Positions 2,974-10,165 of a stretch of 32,000 nucleotides of DNA are shown piece by piece (position 1 is the stretch's first letter; the number at the start of each line of letters is the position of its first letter). The stretch is from an uncultured archaeon (GTDB taxonomy: Archaea > Asgardarchaeota > Jordiarchaeia > Jordiarchaeales > Jordiarchaeaceae). A model generated the notes under the pieces. The model was not told the DNA's origin and did not search any database. It worked only from the letters and a program-made list of their open reading frames with translations. A program made the position numbers and the translations under genes. The stretch is taken from contig CAZECW010000188.1 in assembly GCA_964510585.1 (NCBI GenBank), positions 1-32,000 on the forward strand. Reading direction: 5' to 3'.

Positions 2974-3738
2974 ATGATTCAGCTAACTTTAATACAGCTT
3001 GACAATTATGGACGATTCACCGAGCTCCTAGGGGCGGATCGGGAGTCCGATTTACAGATTCTACAATCGGAGCTCTATGCGGATCTCCAAAGGATGTTTG
3101 CTCTGAGAAGAGGATTGGTTTTTTATAATCGTTTTGATAACATGCTTGCGGTGTCTAATGGCATATCGGTCCAGGAGCATGAGATGATTTTAAGGAGTGT
3201 GACTAGAAGGTATCCGGTTTCCATTAGTATGGGCATTGGTTCTGCTGAAACGCCTTATGAGGCTCAAGTTCTGGCAACAAAAGTTTTACAAGAGACGGGT
3301 AGCGCCCAGTCGGAGACCCGCAAAGCGATTCTGGCGCAAAAGTCTAATGATAACGGTGGTCAGGAGTATGTTCAGATCGCCCACATAGACATAAATGGCT
3401 TCACGTCGAAAGTCACGGATCGGGAATCCGCTTACCAGAGTACTTATCTTATATATTCTTCTACCTCTATTCTCATGAGAATGTTTGGGGATAAGGGAGC
3501 CCTCCTCTTTTTTAATGGGGGGGATAATTTTATTGCAGTTTGTAATGGTTTGAAGAAGTCTGACTTCAAAGAAATATTTGATAGGTTTGAGACAAGCATG
3601 AACCTGAGGCTTAAAGCAGGCATAGGCTTTGGCAAAAATGCTCTGGACGCTCTGTCAAGGGCGAATATAGGCCTCTCCTTGATTAGGAAGAAGAAGGTAA
3701 ATGATGTAATATTCCTTAACGAAGAAGAGATGCTCTAA
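2974..3738 (+). CDS. arfA: GTP cyclohydrolase III (IIa)
   Basis: IQLDNYGRFT..LG.DRESDLQ.LQ, RFDNMLAVSNG, HIDIN, GGDNF: the duplicated cyclase-like fold of archaeal GCH III. Confidence 0.92.
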   Translation: MIQLTLIQLDNYGRFTELLGADRESDLQILQSELYADLQRMFALRRGLVFYNRFDNMLAVSNGISVQEHEMILRSVTRRYPVSISMGIGSAETPYEAQVLATKVLQETGSAQSETRKAILAQKSNDNGGQEYVQIAHIDINGFTSKVTDRESAYQSTYLIYSSTSILMRMFGDKGALLFFNGGDNFIAVCNGLKKSDFKEIFDRFETSMNLRLKAGIGFGKNALDALSRANIGLSLIRKKKVNDVIFLNEEEML

Positions 3739-5585: not shown

Positions 5586-6248
5586 TTGAAGCACGTCATA
5601 TTGCCCATTGGAAGCACAGAACAACATGGACCCCACCTACCACTAGGCACCGACACCTATATCGCAAAAAGAATATCTGAGGCCCTAGCCACAGAGCTAA
5701 AAATTGACCTAGTGCCCACGCTGAGTTACGGGGTATCAGGAGAACACACAGGTTTCCCCGGAACAATTGGCATCCAACCCGAAACACTGTTGAAAACAGT
5801 GGAGGACATCAGTAAAAGTCTATTAAAATGCTACCAAAAGGTCATAATTGTCAACACCCATGGAGGAAACACTCCAACACTCCAAAAATTAAAAAACGAG
5901 AAAATAATCATAGTCGACCTATTTCACGCCCTAAAAGGGATGCTGGAAAACCTGAGAGAAACAGATATGGGAGGAATCTGCCACGCATGTGAAGCGGAAA
6001 CCTCCCTCATGCTATACCTCAAACCCGACCTAGTAAAAAAGGAAAAAATCACCGAGGACATAGTTAAATACGTTCCCCAACTTGACCCACAATCAGAATC
6101 ACCCCTCCCAAATGGCTGGAAAACCATAAACTACTCCCAATCAGGAGTAATTGGAGACCCCACAAAAGCCACACCAGAGAAGGGAAAGAAAATATTTGAC
6201 GCTCTAATCAGAAAAATGTCAGAAAAATTAGAAACTCTCCTAACTTGA
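5586..6248 (+). CDS. arfB: Creatininase-family formamide hydrolase (FAPy deformylase)
   Basis: LPIGSTEQHGPHLPLGTD, YGVSGEH.GFPGT, NTHGGN, HACEAETS, SGVIGDP, in riboflavin operon context. Confidence 0.85.
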   Translation: MKHVILPIGSTEQHGPHLPLGTDTYIAKRISEALATELKIDLVPTLSYGVSGEHTGFPGTIGIQPETLLKTVEDISKSLLKCYQKVIIVNTHGGNTPTLQKLKNEKIIIVDLFHALKGMLENLRETDMGGICHACEAETSLMLYLKPDLVKKEKITEDIVKYVPQLDPQSESPLPNGWKTINYSQSGVIGDPTKATPEKGKKIFDALIRKMSEKLETLLT

Positions 6249-6250
6249 GT

Positions 6251-6305
6251 AAAAAAGATAGTACAGAAAGCCAAGTAGAGCTTAAAAAACCAAAAGGGGA
6301 AAATA
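6251..6305 (-). terminator. Putative oligo-T terminator after the GTPase pair
   Basis: T4-T6 tracts on the minus strand in the convergent gap between arfB and the GTPase. Confidence 0.35.
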
Positions 6306-6322
6306 AGGCACTCCACCTCTAT

Positions 6323-6856
6323 TTATGTGCGATATTTTGGAGTACTAAGAATCTTTTCCGCCAGTTTGTAAAAAGCCATTATCACGTTTTTACCAGTCTT
6401 GGCCGAGGACTCCAAATAATCAACCCCAATACTCCTAGCATAATCAACAGCCTTCTCCCTAGGCACCCTGCGAAAAACAGCCAAATCGTACTTATTTCCC
6501 ACAAGAATCAAAGGAACCTCTTTATTCAAACTAGACCTGATCTGTCCAAGCCAATCTCCCAAACTCTCAAAGCTTTCCTCGCTGGTAATGTCGAAAACCA
6601 GCATAGCACCGTCAGAACCCCTATAAAGAATATTCTCCCCAAAACGGAACTTCTCCTGACCCCCAATTTCAAAAATACTCAAACTAACACGCTTACCCTC
6701 AATGTCCAGCTCCCTATTCGATATGCGAGTAAAGTCCGCTCCCTTGTAACCCTCAATAAAAACCCCATGAACAAACCTACGAGTGATACTCGTTTTACCA
6801 ACCCCAGTGTCACCAGCCAAAACCACTTTGAGCATTAACTCCTTACCAGACACCAC
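6323..6856 (-). CDS. Rab/Ras-like small GTPase with atypical G2 and G3 motifs
   Basis: G1 GDTGVGKT, G4 NKYD and G5 SAK intact; G3 reads FEIGGQ; no G2 Thr; Rab-like YRGSDGAMLVFDIT. Start GTG at 6856 or 6853. Confidence 0.9.
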   Translation of the reverse strand: MVSGKELMLKVVLAGDTGVGKTSITRRFVHGVFIEGYKGADFTRISNRELDIEGKRVSLSIFEIGGQEKFRFGENILYRGSDGAMLVFDITSEESFESLGDWLGQIRSSLNKEVPLILVGNKYDLAVFRRVPREKAVDYARSIGVDYLESSAKTGKNVIMAFYKLAEKILSTPKYRT

Positions 6857-7049
6857 TCAAAACAACCCCTTACCGAACCTTTTTACAACCCACAACAACA
6901 AACCCCAACGAAGCAAATCCTGCATAATAAAAGTCGAATCACCAAATAAAGATTAACCACAAACTAAAGAAAGCACCCTTCACGCTTAATAAGCAGAGAC
7001 GTTAAAAATATGAGGAGGGAGCAAAATGCAACAAAAACCCTGAATAGAA

Positions 7050-7577
7050 TTAGAGACCCTTACTTTGAATAATGCTCTTAGCCAGCGCCAAAAAGGCAGC
7101 CTCTACATTATCTCCTTCCTTGGCCGAGGTCTCAAAGAATGGCGCACCCAAACTCTTCGCGTAATCTTCTCCCTCGCTCCTCTTAACCTCCCTAAGATTC
7201 TTCAAATCACACTTGTTACCAACAACCACCACCGCTGCAACATCATTTGTATTATTCATCATTTCAGTTCTCCAATTTTCAAGATTTTCTAAAGTTGTCC
7301 TACGAGTAACATCATAGACCAAAAGTGCACCAACCGCACCCAAATAGAACCCTGACCTAACATGTTTAAAGTGGGGCTGCCCAGCCAAGTCCCAAATAAT
7401 AAGTTTAACAGAAGTACCCTCAACACTAAGGCTCTTGGCGAAAATATTTGTTCCTAGAGTCATTTTGTAATCTTTCTGAAATTTTCCAGTAATGAATTTT
7501 TCAATTAAGCTTGTTTTACCCACAGCTCCGTCGCCTGCCAGAATTACTTTGTACATTAGTTCTTTGGGTTTGGACAT
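7050..7577 (-). CDS. Rab-like small GTPase, canonical motifs
   Basis: GDGAVGKT, YKMTLG, WDLAGQ, LLVYDVT, NKCD, ETSAK. No C-terminal Cys prenylation motif. Confidence 0.95.
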   Translation of the reverse strand: MSKPKELMYKVILAGDGAVGKTSLIEKFITGKFQKDYKMTLGTNIFAKSLSVEGTSVKLIIWDLAGQPHFKHVRSGFYLGAVGALLVYDVTRRTTLENLENWRTEMMNNTNDVAAVVVVGNKCDLKNLREVKRSEGEDYAKSLGAPFFETSAKEGDNVEAAFLALAKSIIQSKGL

Positions 7578-8273
7578 TTTTCAACCATCCTTATCAATGC
7601 TTTAGAAGATTGTTTGCCCCTTTAAGGCTCTCAACTTACTCACTTTTTGCTTTCCATCTTAAATTTTTGTCCCTGAGAATATAATTCCATCACAATATAA
7701 TATTTATTTTTTGGGTAAAAATTACATTTTTCTCTAATATATTTTGTGAATAAGACAGTTAGACTAGAAGCAGATAAGTAGCGGGCTGGAAGTTTTGATT
7801 GCCCCACAGAAAAAGTCACCTCCACCTAGCCAACCCAAACCAGCCAACAACTTACACCTCCACTTAATAGGATCAAGGGACAGAATGCCACTAGAAATCA
7901 TATCTTTTGAGCTAATGTCTATGATCTAGGGCTTTTTAACGCCACTAAATTCCTTTAAGTATATATCCTGAAAAAGATTTTGAGCAAAAAAGTTGAGAAA
8001 ACCTCCCTTTTTTGGTGAGTAGGAGTTTCCCTTGTATCGTAACCCTTAGGAAGGGTGGATTCAAATTTATTTGTTCTTTTCGAACTGTCTCAGTAAACCA
8101 TGTGTTTTACGATGACTCTTCACACCCAGCAGGCGGAATATTTAGTGTAGCTGCGCAACTGCAATTTTATTGATGGGGGTGGTTGAGGTTTTCATTTCTT
8201 TTGAAGCAAATTTTATATGATTTTGTTAATCATCGTTCTTAATCCCAAGGAATAGTTGAGGTGAAGTGATTTT

Positions 8274-8627
8274 ATGGAAGAGTTGTTGGATGAAGTTCTG
8301 GAGCATATTGGTAAGGCCAAGTCTGCTGAAGATGGCGAGGGTTTAAAGCTTGAGGCTTGGATGGCTCGAGCTAGTTTGGAGCTTTTTCTCATTAAGTTGG
8401 TTCTGCTGCATGGTTTGGAGGAGAGGGAACCGCCTTCTGGGCCTAGTGTGAAGAGGAAGGAGCAGAATAGGGATTTGAAGCTTTTGGGTTTGGCTGAGGA
8501 AAAGGTTAGGGAGGCTCAGCGGGCTTTTGTTAGTGGGGATTATTTTTTGACTTATGAATGTGTTTGGTATGCTAAGAATGCTTTAACTAAGATTGTAACT
8601 TCGGATTCTAAGGTTTCGGGTGGGTAA
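8274..8627 (+). CDS. Hypothetical all-helical protein, 117 aa
   Basis: ATG after GAGGTGAAGTGA; amphipathic helices; no family recognised. Confidence 0.7.
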   Translation: MEELLDEVLEHIGKAKSAEDGEGLKLEAWMARASLELFLIKLVLLHGLEEREPPSGPSVKRKEQNRDLKLLGLAEEKVREAQRAFVSGDYFLTYECVWYAKNALTKIVTSDSKVSGG

Positions 8628-8709
8628 ACCGAGTTTTTGTGGCAGCTTCTGTGGAGTGGTGAAAGGTTTATTTTTGTTTCTTGCTTCTTTTGTTTTTGGA
8701 GTTGATTTT

Positions 8710-9279
8710 TTGAAGACTGGTGTTAGGGTTTTGGGTGTGGCAGAGAGTTTTGTTAAGGGTGCTAGTAAGCGTTCGGTTCTTGCGGGTGTGGTTATGAGGG
8801 GTGATCTTCAGATTGATGGCTTCGCCTTCTCGACAGTTACTGTGGGAGGATTGGACGCAACTGAGGGCGTGCTTAAGCTCTACCGAGTTCTTGATAGAAG
8901 TGATATTAGGTTTCTGTTTTTGAATGGTTGTATCATTAGTTGGTTTAACATTGTGGATTTGAATCGGGTATATGGCGAGTTGAGTATCCCTTTGGTATGT
9001 ATAACTTATGAGGAGTCTGCAGGGTTAGAGAAATACTTTAAGGAGTACTTTTCGGATTGGGAGGAGAGACTGAAGATTTATAGTAGACTGGGAGATAGGG
9101 AGCCCCTTAGGCTTAATACGGGTTATGAGATTTTTGTGCGTTACTTGGGACTGAGCAGGGAGGAGGCGGTAAGGGTTTTGAACAAGTTTACTCTTCAGGG
9201 CTCTGTTCCTGAACCCTTAAAAACAGCTCGCCTGCTGTCTAGGGCGATTATAAGAAGTGGGATTGCAAATTTAGATTAG
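8710..9279 (+). CDS. DUF99 (endonuclease V-like fold) family protein
   Basis: RVLGVAESF, LAGVVMR.D..IDG, VGGLDAT, GCIISWFNIVD, VPEPLKTARL. TTG 8710 after GGAGTTG is preferred over the ORF-track start at 8620. Confidence 0.8.
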   Translation: MKTGVRVLGVAESFVKGASKRSVLAGVVMRGDLQIDGFAFSTVTVGGLDATEGVLKLYRVLDRSDIRFLFLNGCIISWFNIVDLNRVYGELSIPLVCITYEESAGLEKYFKEYFSDWEERLKIYSRLGDREPLRLNTGYEIFVRYLGLSREEAVRVLNKFTLQGSVPEPLKTARLLSRAIIRSGIANLD

Positions 9280-9384
9280 AGCGTAATTGGGTTTATTGAT
9301 TCTGAGTTTTTGCGGGTTTTTCACTTTCCCTCTCTCTATTAGGACTCCACGTTTAATGCGTAATTTTTTGCTGGTTTCTGGTTA

Positions 9385-9846
9385 TTAGTTTTTCATGTTA
9401 CTCCAGAGAAGGTCTTCTATGGCTTTGAAGTTTATTAAGCGATCTAGATTGTTTCCCTCAAGTATTTTTTGGATTTCACTTTCTAGGTATTCTAGTTCTT
9501 TTTTGTTGTTTTTTCCATCCTTGAATAGAGTGTCGTATTTCTCTTGGAATTTTTTGTAGATTTTTTTGAATTTGGAAATGTCTGATGGTTCCTGTTGGGG
9601 GTCAATTACTGCTATCATTGTGAAGTTCGTGTCTTTGTGGAATATAAACCCGTTTTCGCCTATGACGAATGAGGAGAAGCCATTGTTACTCTTTTTTTCA
9701 GTAAAAACGTTAGAGAAGTCTGATAGTGCGGAGACGAAATTGGTGAGTTCCTTGATGTTTATGTCTCTCTTGGAGTTTTCTTTGATGTATAGTGGTTTTC
9801 CCTCGCTTGATAGTATGTATATGGCGTGAATCAAAAGGTTCACCAC
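9385..9846 (-). CDS. Longin-like domain protein
   Basis: IHAIYILSSEGKPLY hairpin, helix FVSALSDFS, strands FSSFVI / FIFHK / FTMIAVID, helices KKIYKKFQEKY: longin beta-beta-alpha-beta-beta-beta-alpha-alpha pattern. Pattern recognition only. Confidence 0.6.
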   Translation of the reverse strand: MVNLLIHAIYILSSEGKPLYIKENSKRDINIKELTNFVSALSDFSNVFTEKKSNNGFSSFVIGENGFIFHKDTNFTMIAVIDPQQEPSDISKFKKIYKKFQEKYDTLFKDGKNNKKELEYLESEIQKILEGNNLDRLINFKAIEDLLWSNMKN

Positions 9847-10165
9847 GTTTTTGTTATCTTAATATTTTCTGTAGTATAATTACAAAATTCTTAAATAAAA
9901 GGTTTTTGGAAGCCAAAATTGTTAATATCAAAAGGAAATACGCCTATAACTGAATTTTTGGCTATATTCCGGAGGCCTACACTATGTTTATCGAGCCTAT
10001 CCATCTATTGGTGTCTTCCGCAGCACTTTTCCGGATTAGATAAGATTTGTTATTCTTTCTTACTTTTTCTACTATTTGCACCCTCGCAGTTAGTTTAGTT
10101 ACCTTAATAGGAGAGGATACTGAATGTAAAAATCTTTGGAATATTGAAGGAGAGTTGTTCTTTTT

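What the first reader, a model, noticed from the sequence alone, without database searches (positions are those of the whole stretch)
6323..7577. Tandem Rab-like GTPases: one canonical, one with both switch residues replaced
Seen: the two proteins align without gaps over the first ~68 aa with identical numbering (KELM.KV.LAGD..VGKTS). The 7050-7577 copy has T40 (YKMTLG) and D63 (WDLAGQ). The 6323-6856 copy has A40 (YKGADF) and E63 (FEIGGQ) but keeps G1, G4 (NKYD) and G5 (SAK). Established: the G2 Thr and G3 Asp organise Mg2+ and the gamma-phosphate switch; eukaryotic RGK proteins and pseudo-GTPases deviate at these sites. Inference: a duplicate that still binds nucleotide but switches poorly, perhaps a scaffold or partner of the active copy.
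Basis: partly seen in the sequence, partly recalled or inferred. Interest (0 to 1): 0.62.

Follow-up and report, generated by a model that had tools for sequence, protein, structure and literature searches.

The report
Switch-eroded Rab-like GTPase beside canonical paralog
An Asgard archaeon carries two neighbouring Rab-like GTPase genes, and one belongs to a family-wide, selectively maintained lineage that keeps its nucleotide-binding residues but has a glutamate at the magnesium-linked aspartate and has repeatedly lost its switch and catalytic residues, so it probably binds nucleotide without working as a normal switch.

Summary
6323-6856(-) and 7050-7577(-) encode two Ras/Rab-fold proteins that are 41% identical with no gaps. 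One is canonical (T40, D63). The other has A40 and E63 but intact G1, G4 and G5.

The two deviations behave differently. E63, together with F62 and R44, is invariant in all 17 members of an ortholog clade. That clade occurs in 6/6 species genomes of one Jordarchaeia/Freyarchaeia family and was not found in the other 394 Asgard genomes searched. Asp is 105/105 in other homologs. Position 40 is not conserved (A/S/T/G). Gln67 was lost at least three times and Gly66 once. Every nucleotide-contacting residue is 17/17.

The gene is under purifying selection (dN/dS about 0.09-0.14, against 0.04-0.07 for the neighbour).

It is not a recent tandem duplicate. Its likely sister is a canonical gene in the sister family, and the neighbour has its own ortholog there.

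Best reading: a lineage-specific Rab-like protein that still binds nucleotide, has an eroded switch, and carries a remodelled, frozen switch II surface.

Partnership with the neighbour is untested. The pair is always adjacent, but so is the unrelated riboflavin operon.

First readers of this scan flagged the same pair in two other genomes.

The parts
6323..6856 (-). Divergent Rab-like GTPase (P0001, 177 aa, GTG start), member of the 'FEIGG' clade
   Evidence: ORF and translation; PF00071 6e-42; AF2 model pLDDT 89, pTM 0.87; Foldseek best matches Rab14/Rab1/Rab8/Rab11, TM about 0.89; 16 ortholog clusters at 57-99% identity
7050..7577 (-). Canonical Rab-like GTPase (P0002, 175 aa) immediately upstream on the same strand
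   Evidence: PF00071 2.5e-52; T40, D63, G66 and Q67 invariant in its orthologs; dN/dS 0.04-0.07
6857..7049 (-). 193-bp spacer between the two genes, with oligo-T runs after the P0002 stop, A/T-rich boxes, and a conserved G-rich SD-like element just before the P0001 start
   Evidence: Sequence; alignment of orthologous spacers of 107-243 bp. Whether the genes are co-transcribed is undecided.
6791..6814 (-). G1/P-loop GDTGVGKT (residues 15-22), intact
   Evidence: K21 and T22 are 17/17 in the clade
6737..6739 (-). Codon 40 (GCG, Ala) at the switch I Thr position
   Evidence: Within the clade: A 8, S 5, T 2, G 2. Other homologs: T 102/105. At least 6 state changes on the clade tree.
6725..6727 (-). 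Codon 44 (Arg), clade-specific and invariant, where other homologs mostly have Asp. By hairpin register it lies across the strand from E63.
   Evidence: R 17/17 against 0/105 in others (D 70/105); strands 44-52 and 55-63 in the model. The pairing itself is inferred.
6623..6670 (-). G3 and switch II, residues 63-78 (EIGGQEKFRFGENILY): E63 (GAA) replaces the Walker B Asp, and the sequence is remodelled and nearly frozen
   Evidence: E 17/17 against D 105/105. G73, E74, N75 and L77 are clade-specific invariants. E codons are GAG x8 and GAA x1, never GAT/GAC.
6485..6496 (-). G4 NKYD (residues 121-124), intact
   Evidence: N, K and D are 17/17
6398..6406 (-). G5 SAK (residues 151-153), intact
   Evidence: 17/17

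Best explanation
P0001 belongs to a lineage-specific clade of Rab-like small GTPases confined to one family of Jordarchaeia/Freyarchaeia. It most likely still binds guanine nucleotide but no longer works as a canonical Mg2+/gamma-phosphate-driven switch or hydrolase.

Inferred order of events: on the stem of the family a canonical ancestor, still represented by the WDIGG gene of the sister family, acquired D63E, W62F and Q/D44R and a rewritten switch II (FRFGEN.L). Afterwards the residues that sense the gamma-phosphate (T40, G66) and position the catalytic water (Q67) were no longer needed and were lost repeatedly in different sublineages.

The new interswitch/switch II surface became fixed, which suggests that the protein acts as a constitutive, non-cycling binding module.

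Shown: the conservation pattern, the phylogeny, purifying selection and the fold. Inferred: retained nucleotide binding, loss of switching and hydrolysis, and an R44-E63 cross-strand salt bridge that would pull the Walker B carboxylate away from the Mg2+ water.
For: E63, F62 and R44 are 17/17 in the clade and 0-2% in 105 other homologs. K21, T22, F33, N121, K122, D124 and S151-A152-K153 are 17/17. T40 is 2/17, G66 15/17 and Q67 13/17, against 97-100% in other homologs.

On a tree rooted with the canonical sister, D63E and Q44R map once to the stem. Position 40 needs at least 6 changes, Q67 at least 3 independent losses (to P, P and E) and G66S one.

dN/dS is 0.09-0.14 for unsaturated pairs. 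The E63 codon changed synonymously (GAG to GAA) but never to the Asp codons one step away, while D63 in the other clades alternates between GAT and GAC.

11 of 15 clade-specific invariant sites lie in residues 43-77. The fold is a confident Rab fold. The clade is present in 6/6 genomes of family f1, and nothing comparable was found in 394 other Asgard genomes.
Against: No biochemistry was done. Glu in Walker B is compatible with GTP hydrolysis in the G3E family (PMC2770081). Q67 is still present in 13/17 members, including the window protein, and Ser or Thr at position 40 in 7/17 could still bind Mg2+. One member (P0010) keeps T40, G66 and Q67. The basal branching inside the clade is unresolved, so the counts of independent losses are minima on one tree. 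The R44-E63 contact could not be measured because model coordinates are not exposed.
Confidence: 0.55

Rival explanations
1. It is still a working GTPase switch that uses Glu instead of Asp to organise Mg2+, directly or through water, as G3E-family GTPases do. The variation at positions 40, 66 and 67 would reflect a changed but functional catalytic arrangement.
For: The G3E family is defined by a Walker B Glu plus an intact NKxD, and its members hydrolyse GTP. G1, G4 and G5 are intact. Q67 is kept in 13/17 and S/T40 in 7/17. Selection is strongly purifying.
Against: Ala or Gly at position 40 in 10/17, Pro or Glu at 67 in 4/17 and Ser at 66 in 2/17 would be unusual for a maintained catalytic site, because these positions are 97-100% conserved in 105 homologs. 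G3E proteins belong to another GTPase class (SIMIBI) with a different architecture, and P0001 matches only Ras-type families.
Confidence: 0.25
2. It is an obligate partner or regulator of the canonical neighbour: an active/pseudo GTPase pair, for example a heterodimer or a GEF-like atypical GTPase as Arl13B is for Arl3. This can hold together with the best explanation.
For: The canonical-then-divergent gene order is kept in all 8 fetched loci and in 6/6 f1 species genomes, even where the upstream flank differs. In the sister family, where the counterpart is canonical, the two lineages are unlinked.
Against: Adjacency to the functionally unrelated, convergent riboflavin operon is just as conserved, so local synteny is generally high. 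The spacer is 107-243 bp, with terminator-like T runs. Linkage and divergence coincide in only one evolutionary event. Neither protein has a dimerisation domain such as the roadblock domain of Rag GTPases.
Confidence: 0.15
3. It is a decaying or neutrally drifting duplicate.
For: It evolves about twice as fast as its neighbour (57-69% against 75-81% identity at the deepest pairs).
Against: dN/dS is about 0.1, the ORF is intact in every genome, there are 62 invariant columns across the clade, and new clade-specific residues are fixed.
Confidence: 0.02

Closest known systems
Asgard Rab-like GTPases (for example Thorarchaeota Rab, PDB 7EZB; Tran et al. 2024, PMC10933270) and eukaryotic Rab21/Rab1/Rab8
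   Same: Same fold and length, about 35% identity, G1/G4/G5 intact, and no C-terminal prenylation cysteines, as in other Asgard Rabs.
   Different: Thor-Rab and eukaryotic Rabs have the canonical switch I Thr and DxxGQ, and Thor-Rab hydrolyses GTP. P0001 has A40 and ExxGQ, two residues of the Rab hydrophobic triad are replaced (W62F, Y77L), and the RabF motifs in the switch regions are lost.
Nucleotide-binding pseudoGTPases and atypical small GTPases (Rnd1/3, RhoH, RGK proteins, N-terminal domain of p190RhoGAP)
   Same: The nucleotide-binding motifs are kept while catalytic and switch residues deviate. These proteins act as constitutive binders or regulators (PMC10211241; the details for RGK and RhoH are from my own knowledge).
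   Different: Those proteins deviate at the Gly12/Gln61 equivalents or have a DxWE G3 (RGK). None is known to me with a conserved ExxG. They are eukaryotic, whereas this clade is archaeal and lineage-specific. Its inactivity has not been measured.
G3E family of SIMIBI GTPases (HypB, UreG, MeaB, CobW/COG0523)
   Same: Glu in Walker B together with an intact NKxD (PMC2770081).
   Different: A different GTPase class and architecture with no detectable homology beyond the P-loop fold. P0001 matches Ras, Roc, Arf and TIGR00231 only. The Glu is convergent.
Degenerate domains of eukaryotic multi-Rab-domain proteins (for example a Paramecium bursaria hypothetical protein, P0145)
   Same: Sporadic WExxG at G3 in one domain of a protein that also carries other Rab-like domains, which gives another pairing of canonical-looking and deviant domains.
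   Different: Those domains are fused in one polypeptide, are eukaryotic, keep Asp at position 44, and are isolated cases, not a conserved clade.

Membership tests
Ras-superfamily small GTPase (Pfam PF00071) | Profile match above the curated cut-off, and the G-domain fold | tested here: met
   143 bits against a cut-off of 21.6; AF2 pLDDT 89; Foldseek TM about 0.89 to Rabs
Ras-superfamily small GTPase (Pfam PF00071) | G1 GxxxxGK[ST], G4 NKxD, G5 SAK | tested here: met
   GDTGVGKT, NKYD and SAK; 17/17 in the clade
Ras-superfamily small GTPase (Pfam PF00071) | G2 switch I Thr and G3 DxxG | tested here: not met
   A40 and E63. In other homologs T is 102/105 and D 105/105.
Rab family in the strict sense (RabF1-F5 motifs, C-terminal prenylation Cys; criteria recalled from Pereira-Leal and Seabra 2000) | RabF motifs IGVDF, KLQIW, RFrsiT, YYRGA, LVYDIT | tested here: not met
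   By eye on the sequence: DFTRI (0/5), SLSIF (2/5), FRFGEN (about 2/6), LYRGS (3/5), LVFDIT (5/6). The switch-region motifs are lost.
Rab family in the strict sense (RabF1-F5 motifs, C-terminal prenylation Cys; criteria recalled from Pereira-Leal and Seabra 2000) | C-terminal CC/CxC prenylation motif | tested here: not met
   The protein ends in ...STPKYRT. This is usual for Asgard Rab-like proteins.
PseudoGTPase, nucleotide-binding and catalytically inactive type | Conserved catalytic or switch motifs missing by sequence | tested here: met
   A40 and E63 in the window protein. Across the clade, T40, G66 and Q67 are not maintained.
PseudoGTPase, nucleotide-binding and catalytically inactive type | Binds nucleotide but does not hydrolyse it | not testable with these tools
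   Needs purified protein. Binding is inferred only from invariant G1/G4/G5 and F33.
G3E GTPases (SIMIBI class) | Walker B Glu plus an intact NKxD | tested here: met
   E63 and NKYD; definition from PMC2770081
G3E GTPases (SIMIBI class) | Homology to HypB/UreG/MeaB/CobW families | tested here: not met
   No such family appears among the Pfam or NCBIfam hits, only Ras, Roc, Arf and small_GTP. The tree places it among Rab-like paralogs.
Rag/Gtr-type heterodimeric GTPases | C-terminal roadblock dimerisation domain | tested here: not met
   Both proteins are 175-177 aa G domains only

The most novel reading that the evidence does not exclude
The invariant R44-E63 pair forms a cross-strand salt bridge that replaces the Mg2+-water link of the Walker B Asp. 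This would create a Mg2+-independent, permanently nucleotide-loaded Rab-like module whose frozen switch II surface binds or regulates the canonical neighbour. If so, it would be an archaeal, independently evolved active/pseudo small-GTPase pair.
Probability: 0.12. Interest if true: 0.7.

Novelty: new variant of a known kind. Interest (0 to 1): 0.45.

Why it matters
Asgard archaea are studied because their expanded small-GTPase sets resemble the eukaryotic trafficking toolkit. Published work (Tran et al. 2024, and the Asgard Arf papers found) treats them as canonical switches. This clade would show that an Asgard lineage also evolved a maintained, non-canonical, probably non-switching Rab-like protein, a type so far described mainly in eukaryotes. 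The order of events is readable here: the Walker B change came first, then repeated erosion of the gamma-phosphate sensors. It also offers a natural test of what a D-to-E change in DxxG does in a Ras-type fold. The scope is limited: one archaeal family, no link to eukaryotic ancestry, and no biochemistry yet.

Tried and rejected
(1) Complex prediction of P0001 with P0002, using alignments A4 and A3, gave 'no answer'. This is no evidence either way.

(2) Recent tandem duplication. On the first data set the AU test did not reject grouping the E63 clade with the P0002 clade (p 0.146). After adding the f2 P0002 ortholog, the f1-only grouping was rejected (p 0.0045). A deeper sister relationship of the two lineages remains possible.

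(3) Gene conversion as an explanation of the shared N-terminal 'KELM'. The DNA of the 5' ends is no more similar than elsewhere, so this was rejected.

(4) Search for more distant E63 members. The exhaustive profile search returned a single 50%-identity representative of the clade (P0005). Higher-ranked hits were multi-domain proteins whose scores add up over several domains.

(5) Rfam scan of 6000-10000 found no hits.

(6) The 700-bp ORF-free gap upstream is not a remnant of the 260-aa TPR-like gene found there in L006 and L008.

(7) Literature searches found no description of an ExxG Rab-like or pseudoGTPase.

(8) An extraction of the G004 3' exon was one base out of frame and dropped from the tree. 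Only the G005 exon was used.

Full report
OBSERVATION. The window comes from an Asgard archaeon. The best protein matches are named Candidatus Jordarchaeaceae and Freyarchaeota. The genome is 3.78 Mb and has 24 Ras-family matches. On the minus strand, 7050-7577 encodes a 175-aa protein (P0002) and, 193 bp downstream, 6323-6856 encodes a 177-aa protein (P0001). The two are 41% identical over 168 residues without a gap (E 1e-44), and both match Pfam Ras. P0002 has YKMTLG/WDLAGQ. P0001 has YKGADF/FEIGGQ with GDTGVGKT, NKYD and SAK intact. A gap-free profile alignment to Rab21 confirms that positions 40 and 63 are the switch I Thr and the G3 Asp. Of the 11 strongly scoring Rab/Ras-like paralogs in this genome, only P0001 deviates at these sites. 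The other deviants belong to distant MglA-like groups.

IS IT PRIVATE OR CONSERVED? A search of 5.8 billion protein clusters gave 16 clusters at 57-99% identity (213-377 bits), and then a drop to 130 bits or less. In this ortholog group E63 is invariant, and so are F62, R44 and most of switch II (EKFRFGEN). Position 40 is A in 8, S in 5, T in 2 and G in 2. G66 is Ser in two clusters. Q67 is Glu in two and Pro in two. In 105 other homologs from the same search, D63 is 105/105, G66 105/105, T40 102/105 and Q67 102/105. The nucleotide-contacting residues K21, T22, F33, N121, K122, D124 and S151-A152-K153 are 17/17 in the clade.

DISTRIBUTION AND ORIGIN. Among species-representative genomes, the clade is present in 6/6 genomes of the window's family (f1). 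No comparable match was found in the other 394 Asgard genomes searched at this threshold, apart from one canonical relative. In the sister family f2 the closest relatives read ATVGTQI...IWDIGGQEKF, so they are canonical at positions 40, 63, 66 and 67. In a maximum-likelihood tree the E63 clade is monophyletic (100/99) on a long stem (0.77) and is sister to this f2 WDIGG clade (94/82). The P0002 clade is separate (100/99). An AU test did not reject joining the E63 and P0002 clades on that data set (p 0.146). However, f2 also has its own ortholog of P0002 (56-62% identity). With its uninterrupted 3' exon added, it groups with the f1 P0002 copies (100/98), and the alternative that holds the E63 clade with the f1 P0002 copies is rejected (p-AU 0.0045). 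The two neighbours are therefore old paralogs that separated before f1 and f2 diverged. They are not a recent tandem duplicate.

SELECTION. Over the same genome pairs, the E63 copy is 57-69% identical at the deepest comparisons and the canonical copy 75-81%. For unsaturated close pairs, dN/dS (NG86) is 0.09-0.14 for the E63 copy and 0.04-0.07 for the canonical copy. Both are under purifying selection, and the divergent copy evolves about twice as fast. The E63 codon is GAG in eight genomes and GAA in the window, and is never one of the Asp codons a single transversion away. D63 in the other clades alternates between GAT and GAC. This is modest support for selection on Glu itself.

ORDER OF EVENTS. 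On a tree of the whole clade, rooted with the f2 sister and built without the trait columns, D63E and Q44R each map once to the stem. Position 40 needs at least six state changes, Q67 is lost at least three times (Pro twice, Glu once) and G66S arises once. The basal branches inside the clade are unresolved, so these counts are minima. The pattern is what one expects if the stem changes made the gamma-phosphate sensors and the catalytic Gln dispensable.

WHERE THE NEW CONSTRAINTS LIE. Fifteen positions are invariant in the clade but rare (10% or less) elsewhere: R26, T43, R44, S60, F62, E63, I64, G73, E74, N75, L77, L110, Y123, S150 and K156. Eleven of them lie between residues 43 and 77, which spans the end of switch I, the interswitch hairpin and switch II. 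Two of the three residues of the Rab hydrophobic triad are replaced (W62F, Y77L). In the AF2 model (pLDDT 89, pTM 0.87) strands 44-52 and 55-63 form a hairpin with a two-residue turn. By register this puts R44 opposite E63. Other homologs have Asp at position 44 in 70/105 cases. The model matches Rab14, Rab1, Rab8 and Rab11 with TM about 0.89 and about 35% identity.

MECHANISM. The best-supported reading (confidence about 0.55) is a Rab-like protein that still binds guanine nucleotide but has lost the canonical loaded-spring switch and canonical hydrolysis. It would act through a remodelled and fixed switch II/interswitch surface. The main rival (about 0.25) is that Glu simply takes over the role of Asp, as in the G3E family. 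That family is defined by a Walker B Glu plus NKxD and hydrolyses GTP (PMC2770081). The repeated loss of T40, G66 and Q67 argues against this rival, but Q67 is retained in most members, including the window protein. A decaying gene is excluded.

PARTNERSHIP WITH THE NEIGHBOUR. The canonical-then-divergent order is kept in all eight fetched loci and in all f1 genomes. This includes Freyarchaeum deiterrae, where the upstream flank is different and carries HEAT-repeat genes. In f2 the two lineages are unlinked. However, the convergent riboflavin operon is just as constantly adjacent, the spacer is 107-243 bp, and linkage and divergence coincide in a single evolutionary event. The one complex-prediction job gave no verdict and is not used as evidence. 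Partnership remains an open hypothesis (about 0.15, and compatible with the best explanation).

COMPARISON WITH WHAT IS KNOWN. The structural paper on Asgard small GTPases describes canonical Rab, Rag and MglA types and an active Thor-Rab, with no G3 Glu variant. Searches for ExxG in pseudoGTPases found nothing. Glu at G3 does occur sporadically in single domains of eukaryotic multi-Rab-domain proteins, for example in Paramecium bursaria, so the substitution is rare but not unique. What is new here is a conserved archaeal clade built around it. I class it as a new variant of a known kind, namely atypical or pseudo small GTPases. First readers of this scan flagged the same pair in two other genomes, and their sequence statements match P0006 and L001 as seen here.

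SIDE OBSERVATION. The f2 orthologs of P0002 in two genera are interrupted by short structured inserts at a conserved site between YKKTI and GIDIF (30 and 32 nt). One of them has a further 44-nt insert inside the P-loop codons. The switch I inserts share the 3' end GGGTTAAA and have hairpins with different but complementary sequences. The rest of each gene is intact. This looks like spliced mini-introns in a protein-coding gene and not like decay. It lies outside the window and needs RNA-seq to confirm.

Noticed in passing
L042:3133-3176 and L042:3250-3279 (G004, family f2); L043 about 3311-3342, minus strand (G005): The f2 orthologs of the canonical copy are interrupted by 30-44 nt structured inserts at conserved sites: within the P-loop codons, and between YKKTI and GIDIF. 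The switch I inserts share the 3' end GGGTTAAA and have compensatory hairpins, and the genes are otherwise intact. They are probably spliced BHB-like mini-introns in a protein-coding gene. The window's own P0002 is uninterrupted.
   Followed up: partly
window 9385-9846 (-): A 153-aa protein with a weak Fuz_longin_1 hit (3.8e-5, below the cut-off). Its AF2 model (pLDDT 69) matches longin-fold proteins (zeta-COP, sigma-adaptins, TRAPP longin subunits, VAMP7 longin; TM 0.5-0.57). It is conserved two genes upstream of the GTPase pair in most f1 loci. Longin proteins are typical small-GTPase regulators.
   Followed up: partly
window 7578-8273: A roughly 700-bp stretch upstream of P0002 has no ORF over 61 aa and no Rfam match, and is not a remnant of the 260-aa TPR-like gene that occupies this position in L006 and L008. 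Its function is unknown.
   Followed up: partly
L001:1-5009 (Freyarchaeum deiterrae): Three HEAT-repeat proteins (701, 687 and 343 aa, with faint adaptin-like hits) lie directly upstream of the GTPase pair on the same strand, in place of the Endo-dU and longin genes found in the window.
   Followed up: no
L001:5349-5876 and L008:5378-5893: Some orthologs of the canonical copy end in ...KCKGV, with a Cys fourth from the end (CaaX-like). The window's copy ends in ...QSKGL, without the Cys.
   Followed up: no
G000 contigs C60:21258-21857, C54:8152-8739, C4:211-786, C173:1426-2127, C196:24042-25232, C20:66431-66952: Other small GTPases in the same genome lack the G3 Asp in a different way (VYTVAGQ and IHTTTGQ as in MglA; IFGTPGQ). 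These are distant MglA-like or Arf/Rag-like groups, unrelated to the E63 clade.
   Followed up: no
G000:C25:4783-6570 and orthologs (L022-L027, L032, L037, L038): Proteins of about 600 aa with an N-terminal Rab-like domain (WDLGGQPSF), conserved in both families of the class. The C-terminal 400 aa were not examined.
   Followed up: no
window 8274-8627 (+): A 117-aa protein with no Pfam or NCBIfam match, conserved next to the Endo-dU gene in f1 loci.
   Followed up: no
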